Shown here piece by piece: positions 1-61,986 of a stretch of DNA of 64,000 nucleotides. This DNA comes from an uncultured Pirellulaceae bacterium (GTDB taxonomy: Bacteria > Planctomycetota > Planctomycetia > Pirellulales > Pirellulaceae). The position numbers were made by a program, and so were the translations under genes. Every line of letters starts with the position of its first letter. Positions within the stretch are counted from its first letter, which is position 1. The DNA is taken from NCBI GenBank assembly GCA_937928555.1, contig CALFWR010000004.1:15513-79512 (forward strand), read 5' to 3'. The notes under the pieces were generated by a model that saw only the letters and a list, made by a program, of their open reading frames with translations, was not told where the DNA came from and did no database searches.

Positions 1-3000
1 CTTTTTGGCGGCAGCATCGAAACCGGTCGGGCTGAAGTTACTCTTCTCAACCCCACCGCCCCGGACGCCAACGGTATCGGGTTTGACGTTCAATTTGGCT
101 TTGACACAACGATTGAAGACCAATCCTTTCCGGTAACGTCACAGCAGTCCGTGTTCGGATTGGCGATCGATGGTGATCCGGCAGGTACCGCAGATCCGGA
201 TGGGCAAACTTTTCCTTTCGGTCGCGAGGGCGACGAGTTAATTCTGAGTGAATTCACTCGCAACGGCGTTCCCAACGTGAACCTTGATTTCCAGCTAGGC
301 AACATTACAAGGATTCCGATCCCGTTTTACCGCGAACCGGATGTCGTCCGCCAGCCACAGGATATCCTTCGGGACCGTGACGCGACGATTCTTAATGCAT
401 CGGTGACTCAGGAAGGCCGATTCCTTTACGCTGCCCACACCGCCCGCGCGGGTGCTGACAACTTTGGCGCGAACTCCCACATTCGCTGGTACGTTGTCGA
501 TACCGTGTCGGGAACCCTGCACGACTCGGGGATCATCGAAGCTGCCACCGACGATCTGGACTACATCAATCCGTCGATCGACGTCAGCCCCAACGGGACG
601 GTTGCTATTGGTTTCACGGCGACCGGATTGAACGTGAACCCCAGTTCGTTTGTCGCTCTGGGAACGCCTTCTGCGGGCTTGGAATCGCCGCTGGTTTTCA
701 ATGACGCGGTTTCACTTCGAGACGGTGAGAACTTTTTCATTGATCCCGGTAACAATCGACAGAATCACTTTTGGGGGCGTTACACCACCACTGTCGTTGA
801 CCCCTTCGAGCCAAACCGCTTTTGGACGTTCCAGCAGTATGCCACTGCTGACAATGACTGGGCGGTTGAGGTGACCAATGTTGGTCCTTCGGAAATTAAT
901 CCTGTCGTCGATGCCGTTCCAGCGGATCTTGATAACATCATTGTCATTGAACAGGACGGCGACAATATCGAAGTTACGATCGACGGGACTCTGTCCGGCG
1001 TTTTTGATTCCTCTGCTCTGAGCACTCTGACGGTTAACGGCAACGGCGGCTTTGACCAGTTTTTCGTTCGCGTCGATGATCTGTTCGCCCCTGAAATCAG
1101 TGGCTCATTTATTCTCAATGGTGACGGCGACGATACCTTCACTTACGAGGGCTCGACCGACAACCTCTTTCAATTCAACGTTGGTGCCGGTGGCGATGTC
1201 AATGATGTCAACGTGAACAATGGTCGAATCCTCGCCAGTGGATTCGTGCAATTCACCAGCGGCGATGGGAATGACCGTTTCCAGTTCCCGACTGCGAATT
1301 ACGACATTGACGTTTTCGGTGGCGACGGCAATGACACCTTTGTTGCGGATCAGAACATCACCGGCGACCTTGCGATTCGCGGACAAGTCGGCGACGACAC
1401 GTACAACATTGCGGCGACATCACTGCCGGCGGTTGACTTACTGGATAGCATCGGAGGCGGCGAAGTTGACACACTGGTTTCAACGGGCACCGATGGCCAG
1501 GACGTCATCGAAGTCACCGATAACGCGTTGCTGATCAATGGAATCGCGATCCCATTTGATGATGCACTGAACAACTTTGGCATCGAAGACTTTTCGCTCG
1601 ATGCACTCGCTGACGACGATATCTTCAATGTTTCGACAACCACCCGAGGAGTGGCGCTGTTTGGCAATCGTGGCAACGACACGTTCAATGTGGTTGAAAC
1701 AACGGCAACCACCGGCGTTGCCCAGCTCGTTATCGATGCCGGAACTGGTAGCGGCAACGTGCTGAACGTTACCCAGAACGATGCTCTTCCGGCTGGCTTT
1801 AACGTTGTCGGAGAAGACATAATCAGTGGATTCACCAGTTCGGACATTGAGTTCACCGCGACTGGAGGAAGTTTCACCGGTAACGGGATTTCAATTTTCG
1901 GTAGCGATAGTCGCTCAGATCTTATCGAAGTCCAGGGGCTCCTGGCTGCCAACGATCTGATCGTTGATGGACGCGGAGGAGACGATGAGTTAATTCTCAA
2001 TAACGTGATCGACGGTTTTGCGACGTTCGTCGGAGGCGCCGGCAATGATCGGTTTGACACGAACATCAACGCGGTTTTCCAGGCTACCTTCGTTGACACC
2101 GTAGACGCGGAACTGGATGTGCTTGACCTTGAGTTGACCAACGGTGACGACACGATTCTGGTCAATCAGGATGGCACCTATGTCTTTAATGGATTGTCAT
2201 ATCCGTCCGGCAATGCCGGTTTCACCGGAATCGAAGACTTTCAGATTAACGGCGGCGACGGCAATGACACGTTCACGATTTCGAATACGACGACGGTCGC
2301 CAATTTCTTCGGCGGCGATGGTGATGACGTCTTTAATGTGACCGAATCAGGCCTCGCTAGCGGCGTTTCCGAGTTTCTGATTGATGGTGGCAGAGGGGCG
2401 AATCAGCTGTTTGCCGTTCGATCGGAAATCTTTGCTGGGGCAACGGTTGGAACAGAGCTTGTTATTGAGAACAACCGCGTCACAGGAATCACCGCTGCCG
2501 ACATCAACTTCCAGGCCACCGACGGAGTCTTTTCTCTGGTGGAACTTACAGGAAGCAATCTGGACGATGTGTTCCGAATTCAGGGCGTCAATTCCGGGAC
2601 ACTGCTGGAAGTTCTGGGAGGAGCGGGCGATGACACCATCGACGTGGCGAGCGGCGTTCAGGGTAACGTCAATGGATTTGGCCAGGGCGGCAACGACTCA
2701 AACATTATTCGTCTGAATGCTTCGGTTAACCGGGTGGTCAATTTTGAAGACATCATCGGTTCCAACCGCGTCGACGTTTTCTTTGACGATTCGCAACAGG
2801 ACATTGTTGTTGACGACGCGGCGGTCGTTGGCAACAGCATCACCTATCAGCTTGGCGGCAGCGTTGTCAATTACGACCGCACCTTTGACACCGTTGCCCT
2901 GCACGCCCTTGGCGGCAACGATCGCTATCAGGTGATCACCTCTGACGCGGACGACCTGATTCTTGCTGGCGGATTCGGCGACGATGTCTACGACATTGGT

Positions 3001-4974
3001 GACGTTTTTGGTGGCACAACAATCACAATCATCGACACCGTTGACGGTGAAAACGATCGCTTGACGGTGACCGGAACCGATGGCGATGACATCTTTGACA
3101 TCACCGAAGATTCATTCCTTATTAACGGCAGCCCATTCATCGACGGATCCGGCGGTGCGACGAACATTGTCGGAATCGAGTCGCTGGAGGTCCTTGGGCT
3201 CGGCGGTGACGATACCTTCAACGTGACTTCGGCGACACGGGGATTCGGGCTTGATGGGGGCGCGGGCAATGATCGGTTCGTAATCCACGACACGGCCGTG
3301 GACGCCGGTTCGAACAACCTTGAAATCGAAGGCGGTACGGGCGTCAACACGATCGACATTCAGCGGATCGAGGGCACTCCCCGGGCCGCTGTGATCGAAG
3401 AGGGTCGCATTCGCGGAGTGGCCAATGCGGCGATTCTTTACACTGCTACTGGCGGAAGCTTTGAAGACATCACGATCCGAGGCGTTGAACGGGCCGAACC
3501 GGGCTCTGATCCGCTACCGTTCCTAGATGCCTTCCTTGTCTTTGGATTGCTTCCCGAGAACTCACTACGACTCTTGGGTGGACTTGGTAACGACTTCTTC
3601 CGCGTCGCACCGGAAGTTGCTGGTGATGTCTTCTTGGACGGCCAGGACGGTCGGGACCGCTACGTCGGTTTGCTTTCTGAAACACAGACGCGGCGACTGG
3701 ACATTGCTGACTCGGGAACGGATGGTTCGGTTGATCGAATCAATGCATTCCTGACAGAGAACAGCGATGTCGTGACAATTAACGGGAACGAACTTCGGAT
3801 CTTCAACGATGTACTGTCGTTCCAACCAACGATTGAAACGATCCAGATTCTCGCTGGAGAAGGCGACGACCTGATCGAAGTCGTTCAAGCTTTCAACGTG
3901 GCCAACTTGCAGATTCAGGGGCAAAGCGGCGATGACCGACTGATTGCCAATGGTGTTGGCGGAATTGATAATCTGATCCTGATCGGCGACAACGGCAATG
4001 ACACCCTGGAGTTGCTGGAATCGGCGGACTCCGGATTCGTCAGCGTGTTTGGCAACGCGGGCGCGGATACGATTCGCGTCTCTGAAGATTTCTTCCGGGA
4101 CGGTTTTGTTGACGGTGGATTTGGATCGGACCGCTACGAGATTTCCTTTGCCGACCTTGGCGACAGAAGGCTTCAAGTGTTTGACTTTGGTGATGCGGAT
4201 AATGACACTGCCCAGATTCGTCTGACAGACACTGTTTCCAATGTGACTGTACGGGCATCGGGCTTTACTTCGCCTACCCAGTTGATCACAACGTCACGTC
4301 GGCTTGAGTCGATCGAATTGGTCGGAACCTCAGGTCAGGATATCGTCACAATGTTTGCTGCTCCGTCTGCAAACACGTCGATCAATACCGGCACAGGCGC
4401 CGACATCCTGAATCTGTTTAGCAACAACGGTGCCGAGAACCTTGACATTGATTTGGGAGCACAGGGCGACACGGCCAACATTATCAGAACGGCTGTAGGC
4501 ACGAACACGAATATCGTGACCGGTCGCGACAATGACCTTGTCAACATTGGTTCTACTGCGGCAGCGGATAACGGAAACCTGGGCACATTGCAGGGAGCAT
4601 TGGCGATCGACCTTGGACTAGGATCTGACCGACTGTTCGTCAGTGATTCGGCATCCAATGGCGGTTTTGGTTACACCCTGACTGACACTTCCTTCCGTAA
4701 CCGTGACGAAACGTTTGCTCGTCCTGCATTCTTGGGAGTTGACTTCATCAACGCCGAATTCCTTCAGTTCCGGGCTCCTACCCAGAACAACTTTGTTTCG
4801 GTGACCCCAAGCAACACGGTCCGATTCATTGTTGATGGGAACTCGCTTGTCAATCGCCTGTTTATCCCTGGCGGAAATGACGGACGTGAGTTGTTCGAGT
4901 TCGGTGACAACGAAGGCATCTGGTCATTCGATGCTTTCCGGGATATCCAGTTCCGCAACTTCTTCAACATCTAG
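1..4974 (+). CDS. Giant secreted RTX/hemolysin-type Ca-binding repeat protein (5' partial, frame open from base 1)
   Basis: No stop in this frame from base 1 to TAG at 4972-4974. Many GGxGxD nonapeptides (GGDGND, GGAGND, GGFGDD). Acidic and Cys-free. N-terminal part has a WGRYTTTVVDP..FWTFQQY segment. Confidence 0.85.
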   Translation, partial: LFGGSIETGRAEVTLLNPTAPDANGIGFDVQFGFDTTIEDQSFPVTSQQSVFGLAIDGDPAGTADPDGQTFPFGREGDELILSEFTRNGVPNVNLDFQLGNITRIPIPFYREPDVVRQPQDILRDRDATILNASVTQEGRFLYAAHTARAGADNFGANSHIRWYVVDTVSGTLHDSGIIEAATDDLDYINPSIDVSPNGTVAIGFTATGLNVNPSSFVALGTPSAGLESPLVFNDAVSLRDGENFFIDPGNNRQNHFWGRYTTTVVDPFEPNRFWTFQQYATADNDWAVEVTNVGPSEINPVVDAVPADLDNIIVIEQDGDNIEVTIDGTLSGVFDSSALSTLTVNGNGGFDQFFVRVDDLFAPEISGSFILNGDGDDTFTYEGSTDNLFQFNVGAGGDVNDVNVNNGRILASGFVQFTSGDGNDRFQFPTANYDIDVFGGDGNDTFVADQNITGDLAIRGQVGDDTYNIAATSLPAVDLLDSIGGGEVDTLVSTGTDGQDVIEVTDNALLINGIAIPFDDALNNFGIEDFSLDALADDDIFNVSTTTRGVALFGNRGNDTFNVVETTATTGVAQLVIDAGTGSGNVLNVTQNDALPAGFNVVGEDIISGFTSSDIEFTATGGSFTGNGISIFGSDSRSDLIEVQGLLAANDLIVDGRGGDDELILNNVIDGFATFVGGAGNDRFDTNINAVFQATFVDTVDAELDVLDLELTNGDDTILVNQDGTYVFNGLSYPSGNAGFTGIEDFQINGGDGNDTFTISNTTTVANFFGGDGDDVFNVTESGLASGVSEFLIDGGRGANQLFAVRSEIFAGATVGTELVIENNRVTGITAADINFQATDGVFSLVELTGSNLDDVFRIQGVNSGTLLEVLGGAGDDTIDVASGVQGNVNGFGQGGNDSNIIRLNASVNRVVNFEDIIGSNRVDVFFDDSQQDIVVDDAAVVGNSITYQLGGSVVNYDRTFDTVALHALGGNDRYQVITSDADDLILAGGFGDDVYDIGDVFGGTTITIIDTVDGENDRLTVTGTDGDDIFDITEDSFLINGSPFIDGSGGATNIVGIESLEVLGLGGDDTFNVTSATRGFGLDGGAGNDRFVIHDTAVDAGSNNLEIEGGTGVNTIDIQRIEGTPRAAVIEEGRIRGVANAAILYTATGGSFEDITIRGVERAEPGSDPLPFLDAFLVFGLLPENSLRLLGGLGNDFFRVAPEVAGDVFLDGQDGRDRYVGLLSETQTRRLDIADSGTDGSVDRINAFLTENSDVVTINGNELRIFNDVLSFQPTIETIQILAGEGDDLIEVVQAFNVANLQIQGQSGDDRLIANGVGGIDNLILIGDNGNDTLELLESADSGFVSVFGNAGADTIRVSEDFFRDGFVDGGFGSDRYEISFADLGDRRLQVFDFGDADNDTAQIRLTDTVSNVTVRASGFTSPTQLITTSRRLESIELVGTSGQDIVTMFAAPSANTSINTGTGADILNLFSNNGAENLDIDLGAQGDTANIIRTAVGTNTNIVTGRDNDLVNIGSTAAADNGNLGTLQGALAIDLGLGSDRLFVSDSASNGGFGYTLTDTSFRNRDETFARPAFLGVDFINAEFLQFRAPTQNNFVSVTPSNTVRFIVDGNSLVNRLFIPGGNDGRELFEFGDNEGIWSFDAFRDIQFRNFFNI

Positions 4975-33493: not shown

Positions 33494-34120
33494 ATGGCCG
33501 GCGTTCGCAACTTCACTGACCTGAAGTTCTGGCAACGCTCTCGCCAATGGTCCAAGTCTATCTTCCAGTTCACCAAGAACGCCCCCTTCAGGTCCGACAA
33601 ACGTCTTGTCATCCAGATCAACGATTCCTCATCATCGGTCGTCGCCAACATCGCCGAGGGCTTCGGCCGCGGAACCCAGGGCGAGTTCGTCCAATTCATT
33701 GGCTACGCCATCGGTAGCTTGAACGAAACCCAAGCCCACCTGTGCGTTGCTTACGACCGCGAGTACCTCACGCGTGACCAATTCGGTCCATTGTTTCTCG
33801 AAGGCACAGAGATCCGGAAGATGACGATTGCTTTTCTGAAATCCATGACCAAACAGGGCTCCGGTGTCAAACACATCAAGAAGTTAAAGAGTTGGACCGA
33901 CGAAGTCTGGGAGAGCTGGGAGAAAGCCACCGGTAAGGAACGTCCCGACTGGATCAAACAGGGCCTCCCCTACCCCAACTTCCTCAAGGACCAGGAAAAG
34001 CGCGAGAAGGAACACCAGAGGCGCGAAAAAGAGAAAAACACGTCCGATGGAGAGGAAAACAAGTCCGATGGAGAGGAAAAGAAACGCGACGTAGAGCGAG
34101 ACAATCCAGACTGCGACTGA
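33494..34120 (+). CDS. Four helix bundle protein (23S rRNA IVP / TIGR02436-like) with C-terminal extension
   Basis: F.DL..WQ.S, L..QI..SS.SV.ANIAEG.GR....EF..F...A.GSL.ET...L..A.D..Y. Confidence 0.9.
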   Translation: MAGVRNFTDLKFWQRSRQWSKSIFQFTKNAPFRSDKRLVIQINDSSSSVVANIAEGFGRGTQGEFVQFIGYAIGSLNETQAHLCVAYDREYLTRDQFGPLFLEGTEIRKMTIAFLKSMTKQGSGVKHIKKLKSWTDEVWESWEKATGKERPDWIKQGLPYPNFLKDQEKREKEHQRREKEKNTSDGEENKSDGEEKKRDVERDNPDCD

Positions 34121-38912: not shown

Positions 38913-39124
38913 AGGTCTCAGGGCTGCTTTCTGGATTCCGGAAAAGTCGCCGATATCGTAGCCAAAATAAGGTTTCTTTGCAGCGGCACTCTGTCCCCCC
39001 GGGCCGCACATTACACAACAACTTCATCGGCTATCGGCTCAGATGCTATAGTTTAAGTGAGCCATCGGTTTTTGCGGCAAGCCAGCGAAACCGATTCAAC
39101 TTTCTCGAATCAGAATCGACGGGA

Positions 39125-41053
39125 ATGAGACAAACACAGCAACCACCGTTTCGCCAGCGAACACGTTCCCGTACAGCAACCGCGACGCAATCTCGAATTG
39201 GCTGGCTTGCGATTCTGATATTGGCGCTGTGGGCCAGCCGAGCCGCTGCTCAATCGGCGCAACCAGATTGGCGTGTCGAACGATTGCAGCTCAATCGCGG
39301 CCTTCAGGAAAAGCTTCAGGAGTTGGTCCTCTGGTGTCGCGGCAACGGGGTCCAGCAGCAGGAGAAAGCCACGTGGAGCATCTATCGCCGCTGCGGGCTG
39401 GATCGGCATTACCTTTTCCTGCCCACCGAAAAGACCATGCCCACCGCCGACATCGACGGCAAGCTGGGCGAGTGGTTTCAAAAGCTAACCCAAATCCGCC
39501 GTGATCACGCGACGAGCCTGTTTGACCTAGCCGAACGTGCCGCCAAAGCCGACGAAGGCGCCGTTGCGTTCCGGCTTCTGCACGAAGTCCTCTACTTCGA
39601 CCGCGACCACGCGCGGGCCCGCGAGATGCTGGGCCATCGCAAAATCAAAGACGGCTGGAAACTGTTCCCCGAAAGGATCACCGTCAAACCCGCCCGCAAA
39701 CCGCAGCGCGAATTTGGCTGGCCGGCAAAGACCTACTTTACCGCCACCACGCCGCACTTTTACATTTACTCAAACGCCACCGAAGAACAAACCCGGGCAC
39801 TCGCAGAGAACCTCGAGACGTGGCATTACATCTGGCGTCAACTGTTTTTTGAATTCTGGAAAAAGCCATCGACGGTAAAGACTTGGTTCGAAGGCAAAGG
39901 CCAGCTTCACATCCCCAAAGGTGCCAGCCGTCGCTTCAAAGTCGCCTTCTTTCGCGACCACCCCGAATACGTCAGGCAAATGTTGAATCTGGGCGTTCGC
40001 GGCGCGGAAGTTTCCAGCGGCTACTACCACGGCGACCAGGAAATCTCTTGTTTTCCCGCAGTTGGAGCCACTGGCGAACCGGCCGATTCTACCTGGCGGC
40101 ACGAATTGGCTCACCAACTGTTTCGCGAATCCATCCGCACCCGCCCGTCTCCGTTTGCCGCCAATTTTCTCTGGCTCGACGAGGGCGTTGCGATGTACTT
40201 TGAATCTGTCGAACTGTTTGACGGCTACGCGACAGTGGGAGGATTCGATTCCACCCGGCTTCAGTTTGCCCGCATGCGCAAAATCCGCGAAGGCTTTCAC
40301 GTGCCGATTGCAGAACTTTCGCGCATGAACATGCCGGCCTTTCAGACACGCCCCGACATTGCGCGGATCTATTCGCAATCCGCCGGCATCGCCCACATGC
40401 TCATGGACAGCAAAAACAACACACGCTCGAAACTGGTTGATTTTCTCAAAACCATGCACAAGCAAAAAGTCGATCCACAAAAGAGGCTGTTCGAGAAAAC
40501 CATCGGGCGCACTTTCGAACAACTCGAATCCGATTACGACCAGTTCCTCAAAGTCAAAAATTGGAGCGTCGAAAACCGCATCGAAAAACCGGCAACCCGC
40601 GAAGTCATGGCCATTCCGGAAGCCGACCTAGGTGACGGTGCCTTTGACGAACTGGCGAAGTGCAAACAACTGCGGTGGCTGGATCTGTCCGGGAACAAAC
40701 TTTACAAGCACAACGCGAAAAAGCTTGGCAAGCTCGATTCGCTCGAACAACTGTTCCTCCTCGCCAGCCCGATCGAGCCGGGTGCCCTGGAATCACTCAA
40801 CCAACTGGCCAGCCTGCGAGAACTGGACCTGCGTTACTCTTCGATCATGGACAAAGAAATCGTTGAACTGACAAAGCTTCCCGCTTTGGAAGTCCTGATG
40901 GTTTCCAAGCCCCAACTTACCGACGCCGCCGTTGACTCACTGGCGAAAATCGCCACCCTGAAGACCCTGATTCTGACCAAGGATGCTCTTTCGCCTGCGG
41001 CACTGGAGCAGTTCAAACGGCTTCGCCCGGATGTCGATGTTCAGGAAAGGTGA
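39125..41053 (+). CDS. Secreted DUF1570-like HExxH protein with C-terminal leucine-rich repeats
   Basis: Signal-like segment; GYY..., RHELAHQLF, WLDEGVAMYFES; LRR pattern L..L..L..L.L.. Confidence 0.75.
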   Translation: MRQTQQPPFRQRTRSRTATATQSRIGWLAILILALWASRAAAQSAQPDWRVERLQLNRGLQEKLQELVLWCRGNGVQQQEKATWSIYRRCGLDRHYLFLPTEKTMPTADIDGKLGEWFQKLTQIRRDHATSLFDLAERAAKADEGAVAFRLLHEVLYFDRDHARAREMLGHRKIKDGWKLFPERITVKPARKPQREFGWPAKTYFTATTPHFYIYSNATEEQTRALAENLETWHYIWRQLFFEFWKKPSTVKTWFEGKGQLHIPKGASRRFKVAFFRDHPEYVRQMLNLGVRGAEVSSGYYHGDQEISCFPAVGATGEPADSTWRHELAHQLFRESIRTRPSPFAANFLWLDEGVAMYFESVELFDGYATVGGFDSTRLQFARMRKIREGFHVPIAELSRMNMPAFQTRPDIARIYSQSAGIAHMLMDSKNNTRSKLVDFLKTMHKQKVDPQKRLFEKTIGRTFEQLESDYDQFLKVKNWSVENRIEKPATREVMAIPEADLGDGAFDELAKCKQLRWLDLSGNKLYKHNAKKLGKLDSLEQLFLLASPIEPGALESLNQLASLRELDLRYSSIMDKEIVELTKLPALEVLMVSKPQLTDAAVDSLAKIATLKTLILTKDALSPAALEQFKRLRPDVDVQER

Positions 41054-49941: not shown

Positions 49942-50988
49942 ATGTCAACGCAACCGGACACTCCGGAAATTGCCCAAGAGTCCAGCAGAAACCATCGATT
50001 CGGTGGACTTTCGCGTACCGGCGTCGTGCTGGCGATGTTGATCGTTTTGCCGCTTTGGATTCTGGTGGCCATTCCCGGTGAAGAAGTGGGTAGAGGCAGC
50101 TTTGAGTCCTGCACGATCCGTCATCACGGCTGGCCATTTACTCATCAGCGGACCGTAAAGTTCCTTTTCACTGAAAGCCAATTGGCGGTTCTGCAAAACA
50201 AATCTCTGGCGTGGAACATTGACAACGCTGCTCGCGAGCAGCTCTGCAAAAGCAAGCAGCAGCGACCTAGCTGGTTCGATTCTGCGGGCGAACTTTACTT
50301 GATCCAGGTTAGAGCGAACGAGCACGACAGCAGCTTTGGCGGCAACTATGCCTCTCATTTTTGGTCGGACGAACGCAACTGGCCCATTGCCGAATCAGCC
50401 AGCGGATTCGAAGCCCAAATCTCCTGGTTAGGCCTGATTGGCAATCTGGCGACCTTGCTCGTCATCGTTGGATTGATCGCAAAACTCATTGATTTTCGTC
50501 GTCGGAGACGTTGGCTTTCGATCTCCCTTTTCGAGCTGGCCATCGTTCTGCCGATCATCGGCGTCGCGATCGCAATCGTCGTAAGTGAACACCGCCGCGC
50601 GGCAAAGGAACAGGAACTCGTGAAAACGCTGTTTCGCAGCGGTGGAGGACCCGTTGAGCGACGTTCGCCGGCCATCCCTCGCGTCCTGTTCAACCTGTTC
50701 GACCATCGAGTCAGCCTGCCCGGTTCTTCGGTTTCGCTGTTCGCTCCAGTGGAATCACTCACGTGTTCCTCCTGGGAATTCAAACCGCACGACTTTCCAA
50801 ATCTCAAAAAACTGACCGTTCAACTTGGCAATCTCGAACCGCAGGGTGCTCAACTAGAACGAATCGCCCAAATAAATTGCTTTCCAAAGCTGGAACTTCT
50901 GGTCCTGCACCAAGTAAATTCCTCAGGTCGTTTGTGGCTGGATGAGAACTCAGGGCGACTGCCCAAAAAAGTTCACGAAAACCCGTAG
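49942..50988 (+). CDS. Hypothetical membrane protein
   Basis: Three hydrophobic segments; HGWPF and RRW..ISL.EL motifs; short LRR-like tail. Confidence 0.65.
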   Translation: MSTQPDTPEIAQESSRNHRFGGLSRTGVVLAMLIVLPLWILVAIPGEEVGRGSFESCTIRHHGWPFTHQRTVKFLFTESQLAVLQNKSLAWNIDNAAREQLCKSKQQRPSWFDSAGELYLIQVRANEHDSSFGGNYASHFWSDERNWPIAESASGFEAQISWLGLIGNLATLLVIVGLIAKLIDFRRRRRWLSISLFELAIVLPIIGVAIAIVVSEHRRAAKEQELVKTLFRSGGGPVERRSPAIPRVLFNLFDHRVSLPGSSVSLFAPVESLTCSSWEFKPHDFPNLKKLTVQLGNLEPQGAQLERIAQINCFPKLELLVLHQVNSSGRLWLDENSGRLPKKVHENP

Positions 50989-56505: not shown

Positions 56506-56847
56506 TCAATCCTGGGCTCGCTTCACTTCGACCTTGCGTCTTGTTTTCAATTGGTCGCTTTTCAAATCATTCAACTTGTCGATCCATGAGACGGATTGCG
56601 GCCAGCCTGATTTCAAGTCCATCCTGCCTTCGATCAACGAATCCGCAAGCACAGTAACCTTGGCAAAACTGGTTCGCGGTTTGTGGTCCGGATTGAATTC
56701 CCCAACCATTGCGTCGATTGCTTGTTGAAACTTTGTGCCTGTTTCCTGGCCTTCAATGCGACGCTGGAATTGAACCACTGCAAAATCATTTTCCATTTCC
56801 ACAACCCGATAAGTCTCAGTGGCCGGCAAGGCAGAAGCAGGTCTCAT
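56506..56847 (-). pseudogene. 3' fragment of a hypothetical protein gene, 5' end apparently lost at the IS66 relic
   Basis: Protein-like 113-aa ORF with no convincing start; abuts the transposase fragment. Its stop codon is the MITE-flanking trinucleotide. Confidence 0.45.
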
Positions 56848-57596
56848 GTCGACTTCGGTGTGGTCAATTTTTGGTTTGCGGACGAGGCGAATTCGGAATC
56901 GAAATCATGATCGCGCTGGCTTACCAGGTGTACATCATCGGGCTCTCGATCGACAAAGCCTGCCAACTGCTGAACTTTTTCGAACAACTGAAACTCCGCA
57001 AATCTCAGGCCGATGCGTTGCTCAACCAGCTTGCCCGAGCTTGGGAAAGCGAATTTGAAACGCTTTGTCAGTTACTGGCCAGCTCGGCGGTGGTGCACTG
57101 CGATGAGACTTCCTGGAGCATCAACAGCGTCTGGGCTTTTCTTAATGAAAACCTGACGGTGATGTTCTACGGCGTGCATAAAGACGGTGATACGCTGGCC
57201 GCAGTTCTCGACAAGCAGTCGTTTACTGGAACGCTTGTCAGCGACAATGCAGCGGTCTACGCAGGCTTTACCAGCTCGCAAAAGTGCTGGGCTCATCTGA
57301 TTCGCAAGGCAATCAAATTGACTTTGCAGGATCCGACGAACGCAAGTTACCGGGCTCTGGCCGATGAGTTGCTTTCCATTTACCGCGATGCGAAAAAACT
57401 GACTCAGGACAAGCGTTTGTTCTGCGGCGATGGCTCGTCGGACCGGTCGCACCAGCAAGACGCCATCGGGGGAGAAGCGGCAGAGCGTGCTCAGTAGTGT
57501 TCTCGAAAGTATCGGCAAGCAGTTGAAGCAATTCAATCTTGCGGGGGTGATCGACGAGGTGAAGCGTTGGACGGCGGTCGGCCAGAGTTTCTTTGA
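56840..57596 (+). pseudogene. IS66-family transposase relic (5' truncated, internal deletion/frameshift)
   Basis: V.HCDETSW, G.LVSD.AAVY, QKCWAHLIRKA; after about 57420 a different frame gives ARRTGRTSKT.SG.KR.S.L.SVLES, resembling an IS66 TnpC C-terminus. Confidence 0.8.
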
Positions 57597-58261: not shown

Positions 58262-59062
58262 ATGATTCGACAGCTATTGACAGCCGCAGTCGTCGCTTTT
58301 GCGATCGGCCTTCCAAATCTTGCCTCGGCGGGCTTGATAACCGCTACTCTCCTTGATGCTGACTTCACTCAGCCGACCTATACAGACGGAATAGCAAACA
58401 CCCAGCCTGGATTTAACGGCAACCTGACGCAGACCAATTTTGTCATTTCAGATTCTGCTGGCACCGGTCTGCTTTCGAACGATGGCTTCTTCACTAGAGC
58501 CCAGTTTGGTCCCGGTAGCGGAGGCCAAGCAGTTGTAGCTGGGGACATGATTTTAGTTGAGTCTTTCGGCTTCACTGCCACCGGCACCAACGATTCTCGT
58601 GCAGTGCTTGGTCTGTCAGACGGCGGCACCGGTGGCACGGCTGGTCTCGCCATTGGAACTCAGCTTTCGGTTGACGGCACGGGCAATGTTTTTGTTGAGA
58701 ACAGTGCTTTTGGAGTTGATAATGCTGGCCGAGTAGACACTGGATTTGATGTCGGGACTGCATTCGATTGGGGCGTAAGGTTTACCGCCGAGGCTGCTGG
58801 CAGCATTGAAGCGGTGACCTACACTGTCGAGCACTTGATCAATGGTGCGACGGTCCTGACTGAAACAGGCCAAGGCATTGCCCCGCAAGATCCAGTAGCT
58901 GCTAACTTTCTATCTGGTTTCATACAAGACCAAGGCAATGGAGCGACTATTTCGACTTCTCGCTTGCGTCTTTCGACCATTGGTGTGGCTGTACCGGAAC
59001 CCGGTACGCTAGGCTTGTTGGCGGTAGGCGGTGCTTTTGCCTTGGTTCGCCGCCGACGCTAA
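58262..59062 (+). CDS. PEP-CTERM sorting domain protein
   Basis: Signal peptide ending ASA; C-terminus VPEPGTLGLLAVGGAFALVRRRR. Confidence 0.92.
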   Translation: MIRQLLTAAVVAFAIGLPNLASAGLITATLLDADFTQPTYTDGIANTQPGFNGNLTQTNFVISDSAGTGLLSNDGFFTRAQFGPGSGGQAVVAGDMILVESFGFTATGTNDSRAVLGLSDGGTGGTAGLAIGTQLSVDGTGNVFVENSAFGVDNAGRVDTGFDVGTAFDWGVRFTAEAAGSIEAVTYTVEHLINGATVLTETGQGIAPQDPVAANFLSGFIQDQGNGATISTSRLRLSTIGVAVPEPGTLGLLAVGGAFALVRRRR

Positions 59063-59133: not shown

Positions 59134-59322
59134 ACCGAGATTATTCACGAGGCGTGGGCGTCAGAGTCAGGTCCGACAGTCATCAACGACTCTGATGCGA
59201 TGGAACGATCACTGTGGTTTTCATCTACCGGATGATTCGCAATTCGCGATGAAATCCAGCCTTTCCCTTGCTCTCGTTGGCCAGTCGTAGAATCAACGCC
59301 CGTCGTCGTGAACAATCCGGGT
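59134..59322. mobile_element. 189-bp MITE, subfamily A
   Basis: TTA on both sides (59131-33, 59323-25). Confidence 0.88.
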
Positions 59323-59337
59323 TTAACAGTGTCAGAC

Positions 59338-61986
59338 ATGAAACTAACACGCTTAATCGGCAGGCACAGGTTGCCGAACTTTCGTGGGCGTATCGCGAAC
59401 CTTGTTACACTTACCCTTCTTTCGATATTGCTGGTTGGTTGCAACGAGAATCAAGATACCGCATCGAATCAGACGAAGCCTGTTCCCTTAACGCCTCTGA
59501 CGGATGAGACCAAGCCTTCAAAGCCATCAGTTGAAGAATCTATCAAGCAACTGGTCATCGCTGAGGATTTGGTCCTCGATCTCACCTTTCAGTTAAAGTC
59601 AATCGGCCGCTGGTGGGAAACCCATAGCGGCTCGGTAGAGCCGGCTTCTATCAACAAAGATTTCCTTCCATGGGAACTGAAGTCTTTGCGGCGGGGACAA
59701 GGTCTGAGTGTGATCGAGGATCTTGTCGAATTCTCACAACCTGCAAAATTCGGCGGAGTAGTTTCAACGTTCGAGTGGCCCATTCAGAAATCAGCCGTAA
59801 AAGTTGAGGGTTTTGATCCGCTTGCGCCCCTGATGCGTATTCTCAAAACAGTCCGCAATATCAAATTTGGTGTTCTCAGTGGCCAGTTCGATTCGCAGCC
59901 CAATCGTTTTGTTATGGAGATACAAGTTTCCGGTCAGGGCGCGCATGCCGACAATGAAGTATCGTTTGACGGTCAACATCGACTGTTGTGGACCAAACAA
60001 GTCGCGAGCTGGCGACTTACCCAGTGGAGTGTTAGAGGATTAAACATCACTCAGTCCCCTCAACATCTCTTTGAGGACGTTTTGCAAACGGCAATCCCTG
60101 ACCACCGCACGCATGCGCGACTTCGCCAGTCGTACCACCAAGACCTGATCGAAGCGACCATCAATACGGGTCAAACACCCGTTTTTGATCCTCGCTACAA
60201 ACCCTTTGTTGATGCCGCATCGCCACATGCATTGCCTTCGGCAAGCGTTGTTGATTTCGACGGCGACGGCTGGGACGACGTGTTCGTTACTGCTCGCTGG
60301 GGGCCGACTCAGTTGCTCAAGAACAACGGGGACGGAACGTTTCGCGATGTAACTGAGAAAACCGGATTATCGTTTCCGGGATTGGTCAATTGTGGGATAT
60401 TTGTTGACATCGACAACGACGGTGACAAGGACGCGCTGATCGGTCGAGCCCTCGAGCCAGTGGTCTACCTTCAGAATGATAACGGGAAATTCACTGCGGT
60501 CACTGGCTCACTGAGCAACCTGAGTGATCAGTATATGGTGTCGGCGATCTCAGCGGCTGATATTAACCGGGACGGCCTGATCGATTTTTACATGAGCACC
60601 TACGGCCCCTTTGGCCAGAACACGCCCGGCAAATTTAAAGACAGCGCTGACTGGAGAGATCGTTTTTTATCTCCACCCCAAAAACGAAAACTGGCGGCCC
60701 TTCATGCAGCGGAGAACACCTTTGTTGACCATGCTGGGCCACCCAACTTGATCGTAATGAACCGAGGTGGCGGGAAGCTTGAGCGTGTTGATGGTGGTGA
60801 CCTGGTCTCTCAATGGCACCACTCTTATCAAGCGGCATGGGCAGATGCGGATGGCGATGGAGACGATGATTTGTACGTGACAAACGATTTTGCCCAAGAC
60901 GCTTTCCTGATCAACGAGACACCGCAGGGAGCCAGTGAGCCAGTTTTTGTCGATGGTTTGGCGAGTGCTTTTCCCGACGGTGGCATCGGTTTCGGTATGG
61001 GGGCTAGTTGGGGTGATTTTGACAACGACTCAGATCTTGACCTCTATGTTTCCAATATGTACTCCAAGGCTGGCAAGCGTGTTCTGCATGCCATTGACGA
61101 AGGTGACCCGCGGTTTGAAATTGCGACACGCGGTAACTTCCTTTACGAGAACCGCGATGGAAGGTTCTATAACATAACTGGCACCGACGCCGATCAACAA
61201 AACGTGGGTAAGGTCGGATGGTCGTACGGCGGCCAATTCGCGGATTTCGACAACAACGGGCACATCGATCTGTACGTTCCAAGTGGATACTACACTGCGA
61301 GCGAAATAGCCGATACCAAGGTCGACATATGAAGTTGCTGGTGGCGCACGGTCGTGCGTTCAGACAAAACGCGGGGCACGCGATTTGCTAATTCGAAAGT
61401 CTGGCAGGACCAGAAGTATGCCGACAAACTATTCCACCGATTGCCTGATGGGCCGCCTTACTACGCTAACAATTCGTTCAGCGGCCATGAAGCAAACCGG
61501 TTGTTTCTCAACAACGGAACATCTTTCATGGACATGACTGGAATATCTGGGGCCGATCATCAAGGCGACGGACGAGGTTTTTCGGTTCTCGATTTTGACC
61601 AGGATGGCTGGCAGGACATCGTGCTCTATTCAACCAACTACCCACGTATCAAGTTGTTAAAGAATCAAATGGGCCACCACTTGCCGAACCGCTCACGAAT
61701 TCAAGTTAAACTAGAAGGTTCCAACCGAAGTGGGGTGGCCTCGAATTCTGAATCAGCCAGAGATTGCATTGGAAGTGTTGTCGCGGCGACCTATCAATCC
61801 GGGCGAAGGCAACTGCGCCGTCTATCGGCAGGCGAGGGAAACGTGGCTCAGAACAGTTCTCTTTTATGGTTTGGGCAAACAGAACAGGACCCCGTCGTCA
61901 GGCTAGACGCGAAATGGCCGACTGGCAAGTCGCTCACGATCGAGCAACCGAATTCAGAGGGGCCGATCCTAATGGTTGAACCTTAG
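59338..61986 (+). CDS. FG-GAP/VCBS-repeat + ASPIC/UnbV (CRTAC1-like) lipoprotein; probable selenoprotein with in-frame TGA at 61330-61332
   Basis: Lipobox LLVGC; D.DGDG..D repeats; second ORF (61354-61986) is in the same frame and continues with FSGHE.N.LF.N, DGRG.SVLDFDQDGWQD and ASPIC-type G.V......R...AGEG..AQNS..L.FG. Only one stop separates the two ORFs. Confidence 0.75.
61338..61363 (+). promoter_or_regulatory. Candidate bacterial SECIS element
   Basis: GCGCAC-GGTC-GTGCGT hairpin begins after an 11-nt spacer from the TGA; lower stem CTGG/TCAG with a UG bulge on the 5' side. Confidence 0.65.

What the first reader, a model, noticed from the sequence alone, without database searches (positions are those of the whole stretch)
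59338..61986. Probable selenoprotein: FG-GAP/ASPIC-UnbV lipoprotein with in-frame UGA, a U-S-C motif and an fdhF-like SECIS
Seen: the two track ORFs (59308-61332 and 61354-61986) are in the same frame and separated only by TGA 61330-32. The junction reads ...DTKVDI-*-SCWWRTVVRSD..., and the FG-GAP propeller repeats continue past the stop into the ASPIC/UnbV domain. After an 11-nt spacer comes GCGCAC-GGTC-GTGCGT, extendable by CTGG/TCAG with a 5' UG bulge. Established: the E. coli fdhF SECIS has a GGUC-containing apical loop, a bulged U and an 11-nt distance from the UGA. Inference: one exported selenoprotein of about 880 aa with Sec two residues from a Cys (UxC). That would be a redox or metal-binding site in a domain family not classically regarded as redox-active.
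Basis: partly seen in the sequence, partly recalled or inferred. Interest (0 to 1): 0.9.

Follow-up and report, generated by a model that had tools for sequence, protein, structure and literature searches.

The report
Selenocysteine lipoprotein with FG-GAP propeller
The two adjacent reading frames are almost certainly one gene for an exported ~880-residue beta-propeller lipoprotein in which a conserved UGA, followed by a conserved RNA hairpin, is read as selenocysteine. It belongs to a large, unannotated and uncharacterised selenoprotein family of marine Planctomycetes and Verrucomicrobia.

Summary
ORFs 59338-61329 and 61333-61986 share a frame and are separated only by TGA 61330-61332. An 11-nt spacer is followed by the hairpin GCGCAC-GGUC-GUGCGU.

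In 76 related genomic loci, and 113 family genes counting tandem copies, the same column is always TGA, never TAA or TAG. It is followed by S-C-x-W-R in 107 of 113. The Ser codon switches between AGY and TCN, so the sequence just after the UGA is translated.

Synonymous sites are frozen only inside the hairpin: NCG 63/63 and GUC 59/59, against a background of about 33%. The stem shows compensatory changes.

A Glu-type sister clade (D-L-E-S-N) keeps the stem but has a CAUG loop. Its one UGA-bearing member has switched to GGUC.

No sel genes lie in the window. A tRNA-Sec lies 2 kb from a family gene in one Pirellulaceae contig. A near-identical tRNA-Sec occurs in the source metagenome at the window's depth (121 vs 117).

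No Cys-form was found.

The family was listed as candidates in a 2016 supplementary table (PMC4807772) but never characterised. What the U-S-C site does, redox or metal binding, is unresolved.

The parts
59338..61986 (+). Single selenoprotein gene: 882 codons including UGA-665, stop TAG 61984-61986. Prelipoprotein with N-terminal domain, FG-GAP beta-propeller and UnbV/ASPIC domain.
   Evidence: Full-length architecture conserved in 68 complete homologues of 770-910 aa.
59338..59442 (+). Signal peptide with lipobox L-V-G-C35 (Cys codon 59440-59442).
   Evidence: Read directly from the translation. The lipobox Cys is conserved in 67/68 homologues. No signal-peptide predictor was available.
60223..61707 (+). 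FG-GAP/VCBS beta-propeller region with DxDxDG calcium-type loops. It spans the UGA.
   Evidence: Pfam FG-GAP_3 6.7e-32 and FG-GAP 7.1e-19. The blade after the UGA aligns to CRTAC1 9etn. A model of homologue P0018 hits 9etn_A at E 2e-21.
61330..61332 (+). In-frame UGA, read as selenocysteine U665.
   Evidence: TGA in 77/77 aligned genes and 113/113 family genes. TGA is an ordinary stop in 7 of 21 other validated genes of the window.
61324..61338 (+). Motif D663-I-U665-S666-C667.
   Evidence: D, U and S are invariant and C is present in 66/68. The +2 residue is C in 107 of 113, otherwise D, N, M or S. Ser is encoded by both AGY and TCN.
61344..61359 (+). SECIS hairpin: 6-bp stem GCGCAC/GUGCGU with GGUC tetraloop 61350-61353, 11 nt after the UGA.
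   Evidence: 87.6% of cells paired; compensatory CG>UA (8), CG>AU (3), AU>GC (2); loop GGTC in 83/113; synonymous freezing confined to codons +5 to +9.
61768..61953 (+). UnbV_ASPIC C-terminal domain.
   Evidence: Pfam PF07593, 28.3 bits against a cut-off of 23.4, residues 811-872.

Best explanation
This is one gene for a selenoprotein.

How the UGA is read (inferred from sequence, not shown biochemically). When the ribosome reaches UGA 61330-61332, SelB carrying Sec-tRNA(Sec) is recruited by the hairpin that starts 11 nt downstream: a 6-bp stem with a GGUC tetraloop, 17 nt from the UGA to the loop. Selenocysteine is inserted as residue 665 and translation continues to TAG 61986.

The product. 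It is an ~882-residue prelipoprotein (lipobox Cys35), exported and lipid-anchored outside the cytoplasm. It has an N-terminal domain of unknown fold, an FG-GAP beta-propeller of the CRTAC1 type, and a C-terminal UnbV/ASPIC domain.

Where the Sec sits. It lies in the motif D-x-U-S-C, at the start of a short helix, in a variable ~75-residue insert between the last propeller blades.

What the site does (inferred, unresolved). I judge a reactive selenol centre most likely. My preferred reading is a U665-C667 selenenylsulfide redox couple acting on an extracytoplasmic substrate. A thiophilic metal site, D663/U665/C667, is a close second.
For: - One reading frame, with homology continuing across the stop.
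- All 76 loci fetched from Pirellulaceae, Mariniblastus, Verrucomicrobiales and one 'Binatia' MAG have a stop at the same column followed by S-C-x-W-R. It is TGA in 77/77 and 113/113 genes.
- About 95 of the top 120 database homologues are gene-caller fragments ending exactly at ...VD[LIT].
- The codons just after the UGA are under protein-level selection with free synonymous change: Ser AGY 53 / TCN 24; Cys TGC/TGT; Leu with 6 codons.
- RNA-level constraint is confined to codons +5 to +9. NCG is 63/63 across Thr, Ser and Ala; Val GTC is 59/59; CGC is 59/74. Background use in the same genes is 24-34%. All 8 GTA at codon +8 pair with CGT at codon +5.
- Pair counts: 87.6% paired, 15 doubly changed cells, 0/500 shuffles reach this.
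- Natural control: 44 Glu-type homologues keep the stem but have an NAUG loop with a free Thr third position. The one UGA-bearing member of that clade, L121, is 58-82% identical to Glu-type proteins and has switched to GGUC.
- The UGA-to-loop distance of 17 nt falls in the 16-37 nt range reported for bacterial SECIS (PMC10778597).
- A tRNA-Sec (Rfam 68.2 bits) lies 2 kb from a family gene on L041.
- In the source metagenome, a tRNA-Sec with 1 mismatch in 98 nt has depth 121, against 117 for the window contig.
- Planctomycetes carrying ASPIC/UnbV/FG-GAP candidates have complete selA/B/C/D (PMC4807772).
- TGA is a normal stop elsewhere in the window.
Against: - No selA, selB, selD or tRNA-Sec lies in the 64-kb window. 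The link to Sec machinery is indirect.
- No Cys-containing homologue was found, which is unusual for selenoprotein families.
- The stem is partly a by-product of the conserved W-R-T-x-V-R peptide, since it also exists in non-Sec homologues.
- No Rfam SECIS model matches.
- About a quarter of members have a U-U mismatch in the stem, and a subclass has a different, shifted hairpin.
- There is no biochemical evidence of selenium.
- The function of the U-S-C site rests on analogy only. The structural model is low-confidence at the motif (pLDDT 32-61).
Confidence: 0.88

Rival explanations
1. The Sec is real, but it is a ligand in a thiophilic metal or metalloid site (D663-x-U665-x-C667), not a redox couple. 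The Glu-type sister clade would then use D-x-E-x-N for a hard cation such as calcium.
For: The class-specific swap is U to E and C to N, with Asp at -2 invariant in both clades. The +2 variants among Sec members (D, N, M, S) can all act as ligands. No Cys-form was found. From general knowledge: the Mo ligand in DMSO-reductase-family enzymes varies among Sec, Cys, Ser and Asp.
Against: No metal-related neighbour genes were found. Most bacterial selenoproteins are redox enzymes.
Confidence: 0.35
2. The TGA is a true stop. Two proteins are made: an N-terminal propeller lipoprotein and a separately initiated C-terminal protein starting at GTG 61354.
For: Gene callers annotate it this way in every database. 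A GTG lies 24 nt downstream of the TGA.
Against: The seven codons between the TGA and the GTG are the best-conserved peptide of the region and show synonymous variation. The stop is never TAA or TAG in 113 genes. The GTG is the Val codon of the hairpin's 3' arm, and in 22 of 77 members that codon is GTT, GTA or GCG rather than GTG. Homologues are single polypeptides, and the propeller and UnbV domain would be split. An N-terminally truncated C-terminal piece would have no signal peptide.
Confidence: 0.05
3. The UGA is read through by another route: near-cognate Trp or Cys insertion stimulated by the hairpin, or a local code change. Selenium would not be involved.
For: Sec machinery was not shown in the same genome. 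Downstream hairpins can stimulate read-through in some systems.
Against: TGA terminates 7 of 21 validated genes in the window. The hairpin matches the SelB-type geometry and GGUC loop. tRNA-Sec is present in family-bearing contigs and in the source sample at matching depth. If Trp or Cys were intended, TGG or TGC would be expected in at least some of the 113 genes.
Confidence: 0.05
4. The TGA reflects a pseudogene, a nonsense mutation or an assembly error.
For: None beyond the presence of a stop.
Against: The stop is conserved in 113 genes from dozens of MAGs, with intact ORFs on both sides. The source-run contig shows no variant at the site at depth 117.
Confidence: 0.01

Closest known systems
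ASPIC/UnbV-FG-GAP selenoprotein candidates of planctomycetes P1 and P2 (Kim et al. 2016, PLoS One, PMC4807772, Table S9)
   Same: The domain description is the same (ASPIC/UnbV domain plus FG-GAP repeat). They are annotated as two adjacent genes split at an opal codon. bSECISearch found a SECIS in 3 of 4. The closest read-through homologue has a non-Cys residue at the Sec column. The host genomes have selA/B/C/D.
   Different: They appear only as table rows, with no alignment, motif, SECIS consensus, distribution or function. I could not compare sequences directly, so identity of the family and of the Sec position is inferred from the description.
E. coli fdhF SECIS (minimal 17-nt upper stem-loop)
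   Same: Both have an 11-nt gap between the UGA and the stem and a GGUC apical tetraloop on a short G+C-rich stem. For fdhF these features come from my own knowledge of the literature. The general 16-37 nt UGA-to-loop range is from PMC10778597.
   Different: There is no conserved bulged U. The window's UG bulge and lower stem are not conserved. Some members have a U-U mismatch, a GGCC loop, or a shifted CGAAGC-(A/G)GUUC-GCUUCG hairpin. SelB binding was not tested.
CRTAC1 / ASPIC (cartilage acidic protein 1; PDB 9etn) and bacterial 'VCBS repeat-containing' or ASPIC/UnbV proteins
   Same: FG-GAP propeller plus UnbV_ASPIC domain. There is sequence similarity to 9etn_A (E 7e-6). Fold similarity of the homologue model: Foldseek E 2e-21, TM 0.53.
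   Different: CRTAC1 is not a selenoprotein. This protein is a bacterial lipoprotein with an extra ~250-residue N-terminal domain, and a ~75-residue insert carrying D-x-U-S-C. Sequence identity is only about 16%.
Thioredoxin-fold selenoproteins with UxxC/CxxU motifs (Prx-like, DsbA-like, SelW-like)
   Same: Sec lies close to a Cys at the N-terminal end of a helix. An extracytoplasmic location also occurs in some of these families. A TlpA-like thioredoxin domain is fused to sister-clade members, including the Sec-bearing L121 with WCPSC.
   Different: This is not a thioredoxin fold. The spacing is U-x-C, no Cys homologues were found, and the Sec column is Glu in the sister clade.

Membership tests
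Bacterial selenoprotein gene (UGA recoded to Sec) | In-frame UGA inside a continuous, conserved coding region | tested here: met
   Conservation and synonymous variation immediately on both sides.
Bacterial selenoprotein gene (UGA recoded to Sec) | The codon is conserved as UGA, not UAA or UAG, among homologues | tested here: met
   TGA in 77/77 and 113/113 genes.
Bacterial selenoprotein gene (UGA recoded to Sec) | SECIS hairpin directly downstream, 16-37 nt from UGA to apical loop, with G in the loop | tested here: met
   17 nt to the loop. GGUC in 83/113 and GGCC in 7. Range taken from PMC10778597.
Bacterial selenoprotein gene (UGA recoded to Sec) | The hairpin is under RNA-level selection (covariation, synonymous constraint) | tested here: met
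   Caveat: the stem is also present in non-Sec homologues.
Bacterial selenoprotein gene (UGA recoded to Sec) | Cys-containing homologues align with the Sec | tested here: not met
   Read-through homologues have E, T or (per the literature) G. A junction profile with Cys found no spanning protein among 5.8 billion. The sensitivity of that short query is limited.
Bacterial selenoprotein gene (UGA recoded to Sec) | selA, selB, selC and selD in the same genome | tested here: inconclusive
   None in the window. tRNA-Sec lies on the family-bearing contig L041. tRNA-Sec occurs at matching depth in the source metagenome. Literature support exists for P1 and P2.
Bacterial selenoprotein gene (UGA recoded to Sec) | Selenium shown in the protein (75Se or mass spectrometry) | not testable with these tools
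   Requires an experiment.
fdhF-type SECIS | 11-nt spacing and GGUC apical loop | tested here: met
fdhF-type SECIS | Bulged U in the upper stem | tested here: not met
The 6-bp stem has no bulge.
CRTAC1 / ASPIC-UnbV family | FG-GAP repeats plus a C-terminal UnbV_ASPIC domain | tested here: met
   Pfam hits above their cut-offs.
CRTAC1 / ASPIC-UnbV family | CRTAC1-like fold | tested here: met
   Tested on the homologue P0018, not the window protein itself: Foldseek 9etn_A E 2e-21, TM 0.53.
Bacterial lipoprotein | Signal peptide ending in a lipobox [LVI][ASTVI][GAS]C | tested here: met
   L-V-G-C35. The Cys is conserved in 67/68. No dedicated predictor was run.
Thioredoxin-fold UxxC/CxxU oxidoreductases | Thioredoxin fold carrying the motif | tested here: not met
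   The motif lies in an insert of a beta-propeller. The spacing is UxC.

The most novel reading that the evidence does not exclude
This would be a large, Sec-obligate family (no Cys-forms found) of surface or periplasmic beta-propeller lipoproteins. Sec and Glu have been exchanged at least twice within it. In marine Pirellulaceae and Mariniblastus it has expanded to several copies per genome, with tandem arrays of up to three genes in the held loci, so it may make up a sizeable share of their selenoproteomes. The D-x-U-x-C site would be a new kind of extracytoplasmic selenium centre, for example a soft-metal site replacing a D-x-E-x-N hard-cation site, in a fold not known to carry catalysis.
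Probability: 0.3. Interest if true: 0.8.

Novelty: new member of a known kind. Interest (0 to 1): 0.62.

Why it matters
Gene callers in every database I looked at split these genes in two. Hundreds of entries are therefore mis-annotated as 'VCBS repeat-containing protein, partial', and the selenoproteomes of marine Planctomycetes and Verrucomicrobia are underestimated.

The family is unusual among selenoproteins in four ways:
- It is exported and lipid-anchored.
- It is built on a CRTAC1-type propeller with no known enzymatic role.
- I found no Cys-forms.
- The Sec column alternates with Glu.

It also offers a clean natural experiment on SECIS evolution. The stem pre-exists in the peptide-coding sequence, and only the loop (CAUG versus GGUC) tracks the UGA. 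A defined motif, D-x-U-S-C, gives a direct handle for finding the function of the bacterial ASPIC/UnbV family.

Tried and rejected
- **Rfam.** Nothing at gathering thresholds, and nothing relevant at E <= 10 around the junction.
- **NCBIfam.** No model matches the read-through protein.
- **Hairpin stability alone.** The fold z-score is not significant, so I did not use it as evidence.
- **First related-loci scan.** It failed on too diverse an alignment and was redone with a trimmed one.
- **Gene-neighbourhood clustering over 77 loci.** It found only tandem paralogues and lineage-specific synteny (sulfatase, SDR, Gfo/Idh/MocA and others). No thioredoxin, Dsb, cytochrome or metal partner appeared.
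- **CxxC in the fused Trx-like domain versus Sec.** There is no correlation: CxxC is intact in about 9 of 30 Glu-type proteins.
- **Genes next to the L041 tRNA-Sec.** They are citrate synthase and a WYL regulator, not sel genes.
- **Pfam survey of 35 window ORFs (30 plus the gene and its immediate neighbours).** No sel genes.
- **Scan for other UGA + GGUC-hairpin genes in 1.2 Mb of held loci.** It found only further family members and a few short spurious ORFs.
- **RNA-seq.** No RNA runs hold the sequence.
- **Structure model.** It gives no coordinates, so the 3D neighbours of the motif could not be determined.
Full report
**1. The observation**

ORF 59308-61332, with its likely ATG at 59338, and ORF 61354-61986 share a frame. 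They are separated only by TGA 61330-61332. Reading through gives 882 codons...ADTKVDI-U-SCWWRTVVRSD..., ending at TAG 61984-61986.

After an 11-nt spacer (61333-61343) comes GCGCAC (61344-61349), GGTC (61350-61353) and GTGCGT (61354-61359). This hairpin folds at about -8 kcal/mol on its own. The 76-nt region is no more stable than shuffled sequence (z = -0.19), so the hairpin alone proves nothing.

Pfam finds five FG-GAP_3 stretches, FG-GAP, and UnbV_ASPIC at residues 811-872, which lies downstream of the stop. A further FG-GAP blade at residues ~719-778, also after the stop, aligns with the CRTAC1 crystal-structure sequence 9etn. The N-terminus carries a basic n-region, a hydrophobic core and the lipobox L-V-G-C35.

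**2. Comparative evidence that the UGA is decoded**

A protein search with a junction-spanning query returned 600 relatives. Of the best 120:
- About 95 are fragments that end exactly at ...VD[L/I/T].
- About a dozen are fragments that begin just after the junction.
- Only about a dozen, at 35-40% identity, read through.

A scan of one genome per species found 354 relatives. The 76 loci kept come from Pirellulaceae, Mariniblastus, other Planctomycetota, Verrucomicrobiales (Rubritalea, Roseibacillus) and one 'Binatia' MAG.
- All 76 have a stop at the same column, followed by S-C-[LFWIHN]-W-R in 74 of them.
- The stop is TGA in 77 of 77.
- Counting tandem copies, 113 family genes are present in the held loci. 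All have TGA. The +2 residue is Cys in 107, otherwise D, N, M or S.

The complete genes are 770-910 aa (one of 1190). The lipobox Cys is conserved in 67 of 68, and about 225 residues follow the Sec.

The codon after the UGA encodes Ser by both AGY (53) and TCN (24). The following Cys and Leu codons vary freely at synonymous sites. The sequence immediately 3' of the UGA is therefore translated in this frame.

TGA is an ordinary terminator for 7 of 21 other Pfam-validated genes in the window. A changed genetic code is therefore excluded.

**3. The hairpin**

The 60-nt alignment around the UGA is gapless (A4).
- The 6-bp stem is paired in 87.6% of cells.
- Compensatory changes are C-G to U-A (8), C-G to A-U (3) and A-U to G-C (2).
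- None of 500 column shuffles reaches the observed values.

Synonymous-site use is more telling. In the 300 codons upstream of the UGA in the same genes, ACG is 34% of Thr codons, GTC 33% and GTG 24% of Val codons, and CGC 24% of Arg codons. At the hairpin the picture is very different:
- Codon +6 is NCG in 63 of 63, across Thr, Ser and Ala. The third position is more constrained than the first.
- Codon +7 is GTC in 59 of 59 Val.
- Codon +5 is CGC in 59 of 74 Arg.
- Codon +8 is GTG in 55 of 75. All 8 GTA co-occur with CGT at codon +5.
- Flanking codons (+2, +3, +11, +12) show no such freezing.

In the source metagenome, two unrelated low-depth contigs match only the 41 nt from 61321 to 61361 at >=95% and diverge on both sides. 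This UGA-plus-hairpin stretch is the best-conserved DNA of the gene.

The UGA-to-loop distance is 17 nt, within the 16-37 nt reported for bacterial SECIS (PMC10778597).

**4. A control that changes the argument**

I fetched 44 read-through relatives from metagenomes. Their junction peptide is D-L-E-S-N-L-W-R-T-M-V-R.
- They also carry GCGCAC/GTGCGC at the same place, with 6 bp in 21 of 44. The stem is therefore partly a consequence of the conserved W-R-T-x-V-R peptide and is not specific to Sec.
- Their loop is NAUG, with a free Thr third position: ACC 29, ACT 6, ACG 5, ACA 4.
- One member of this clade, L121, is 58-82% identical to Glu-type proteins but only 44-50% to the U-S-C type. It has TGA instead of GAA, and at the same time ACG-GTC instead of ACC-ATG, which gives a GGUC loop.

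The GGUC loop thus tracks the UGA in two separate clades. I regard this as the strongest single argument that the hairpin is a SECIS.

A subclass with the peptide W-R-E-A-V-R-F has a different, shifted hairpin, CGAAGC-(A/G)GUUC-GCUUCG, again with frozen synonymous sites.

**5. Sec machinery**

The window has no tRNA-Sec and no sel genes. A Pfam survey of 35 ORFs shows ordinary planctomycete chromosomal content: PSCyt/PSD1/DUF1501, gyrA/B, polA, rho, mutL and others.

The indirect evidence is as follows:
- A tRNA-Sec (ARAGORN; Rfam RF01852, 68.2 bits) lies 2 kb downstream of a family gene on the Pirellulaceae contig L041.
- The window comes from a marine metagenome run, X1. In that run the window's contig has word depth 117. 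An 811-nt contig carrying a tRNA-Sec that differs from the L041 gene at 1 of 98 positions has depth 121.
- Kim et al. 2016 report complete selA/B/C/D in the two planctomycetes in which they list ASPIC/UnbV/FG-GAP candidates (PMC4807772).

**6. What the protein is and does**

By sequence and fold it belongs with CRTAC1 and the bacterial ASPIC/UnbV proteins.
- An AlphaFold model of the Glu-type homologue P0018 has pLDDT 80 and pTM 0.84. Its best PDB match is murine CRTAC1, 9etn_A (Foldseek E 2e-21, TM 0.53).
- In that model the E-S-N motif sits just before a short helix (residues 318-326). It lies inside an ~80-residue, low-confidence insert between propeller strands.

Residues that differ consistently between the Sec and Glu clades include U665/E, C667/N, position 515 (C/A) and Q633/C. 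Asp663 and Ser666 are invariant in both clades.

No Cys-form was found. The read-through homologues have E, T or (per Kim et al.) G at the Sec column. A junction profile carrying Cys found no spanning protein among 5.8 billion sequences, though that short query has limited sensitivity.

Some sister-clade proteins, including the Sec-bearing L121 (WCPSC), carry a C-terminal TlpA-like thioredoxin domain. Its CxxC is intact in only about a third of them and does not correlate with Sec.

Gene neighbourhoods are uninformative apart from frequent tandem arrays of two or three family genes.

I therefore commit to Sec insertion with high confidence. I favour a U-x-C selenenylsulfide redox centre only weakly over a D/U/C soft-metal site.

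**7. Novelty**

Full-text searches linking selenocysteine with FG-GAP, ASPIC, UnbV, CRTAC1 or VCBS found nothing relevant.

One supplementary table does list the family. Kim et al. [quoted passage not shown] The idea is therefore not new.

As far as I could find, these points are not described:
- the family's size and distribution;
- the motif and the SECIS consensus;
- the Sec/Glu exchange;
- the apparent lack of Cys-forms.

NCBIfam has no model for the family, and databases annotate the genes as two fragments.

**Verdict.** It is a new member of a known kind, of above-average interest.

Noticed in passing
L121:1-1440 (metagenome contig Ga0105090_10152585), UGA at 127-129: A member of the Glu-type sister clade carries UGA instead of GAA (peptide ...ELDL-U-SNLWRTVVRSD). 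Its hairpin loop has switched from CAUG to GGUC. It also has a C-terminal TlpA-like thioredoxin domain with WCPSC. This suggests a Sec/Glu exchange independent of the U-S-C clade.
   Followed up: partly
L013, L015, L016, L022, L026, L027, L035 (UGAs near 4960, 7567, 10181) and many two-copy loci: Family genes occur as tandem arrays of two or three same-strand paralogues about 2.6 kb apart, each with its own UGA and hairpin. Several MAGs also carry four or five dispersed copies.
   Followed up: partly
L041:6098-6197: A tRNA-Sec gene (anticodon TCA; Rfam 68.2 bits) lies 2 kb downstream of a family gene in a Pirellulaceae MAG contig, separated from it by a citrate synthase gene.
   Followed up: yes
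window 61321-61361, in run X1: Two low-depth contigs of the source metagenome match only these 41 nt (UGA plus hairpin) at >=95% and diverge on both sides. A tRNA-Sec contig in the same run has depth 121, against 117 for the window contig.
   Followed up: partly
L013, L016, L024, L027, L039 and similar, UGA to +30: Where the Ser after the UGA is TCG, GAUCGUGC (UGA-Ser-Cys) is complementary to GCACGGUC (5' arm plus loop). This gives an alternative 8-bp helix that would compete with the SECIS hairpin.
   Followed up: no
L006, L008, L010, L017-L019, L021, L023, L025, L029, L057: A subclass with the peptide U-S-C-L-W-R-E-A-V-R-F has a different, shifted hairpin, CGAAGC-(A/G)GUUC-GCUUCG. Its GAA, GTT and TTC codons are frozen.
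   Followed up: partly
L036 (U-S-D), L052 (U-S-M), L073 minus strand 7861 (U-S-D), L076 minus strand 8290 (U-S-S): A few Sec-bearing members lack the Cys at +2. L036 comes from a 'Candidatus Binatia' MAG and has 488 residues after the Sec instead of about 225.
   Followed up: no
window 56709-57497 and 58262-59062: An IS66-family transposase fragment and a PEP-CTERM-anchored protein lie just upstream of the selenoprotein gene.
   Followed up: no
window 151-4974, 38978-41053, 49942-50988: Long ORFs of 1607, 691 and 348 aa have no Pfam match.
   Followed up: no
window 33494-34120: An ORF matches the '23S rRNA-intervening sequence protein' family (PF05635). It lies next to the DUF1501/PSCyt gene pair.
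   Followed up: no
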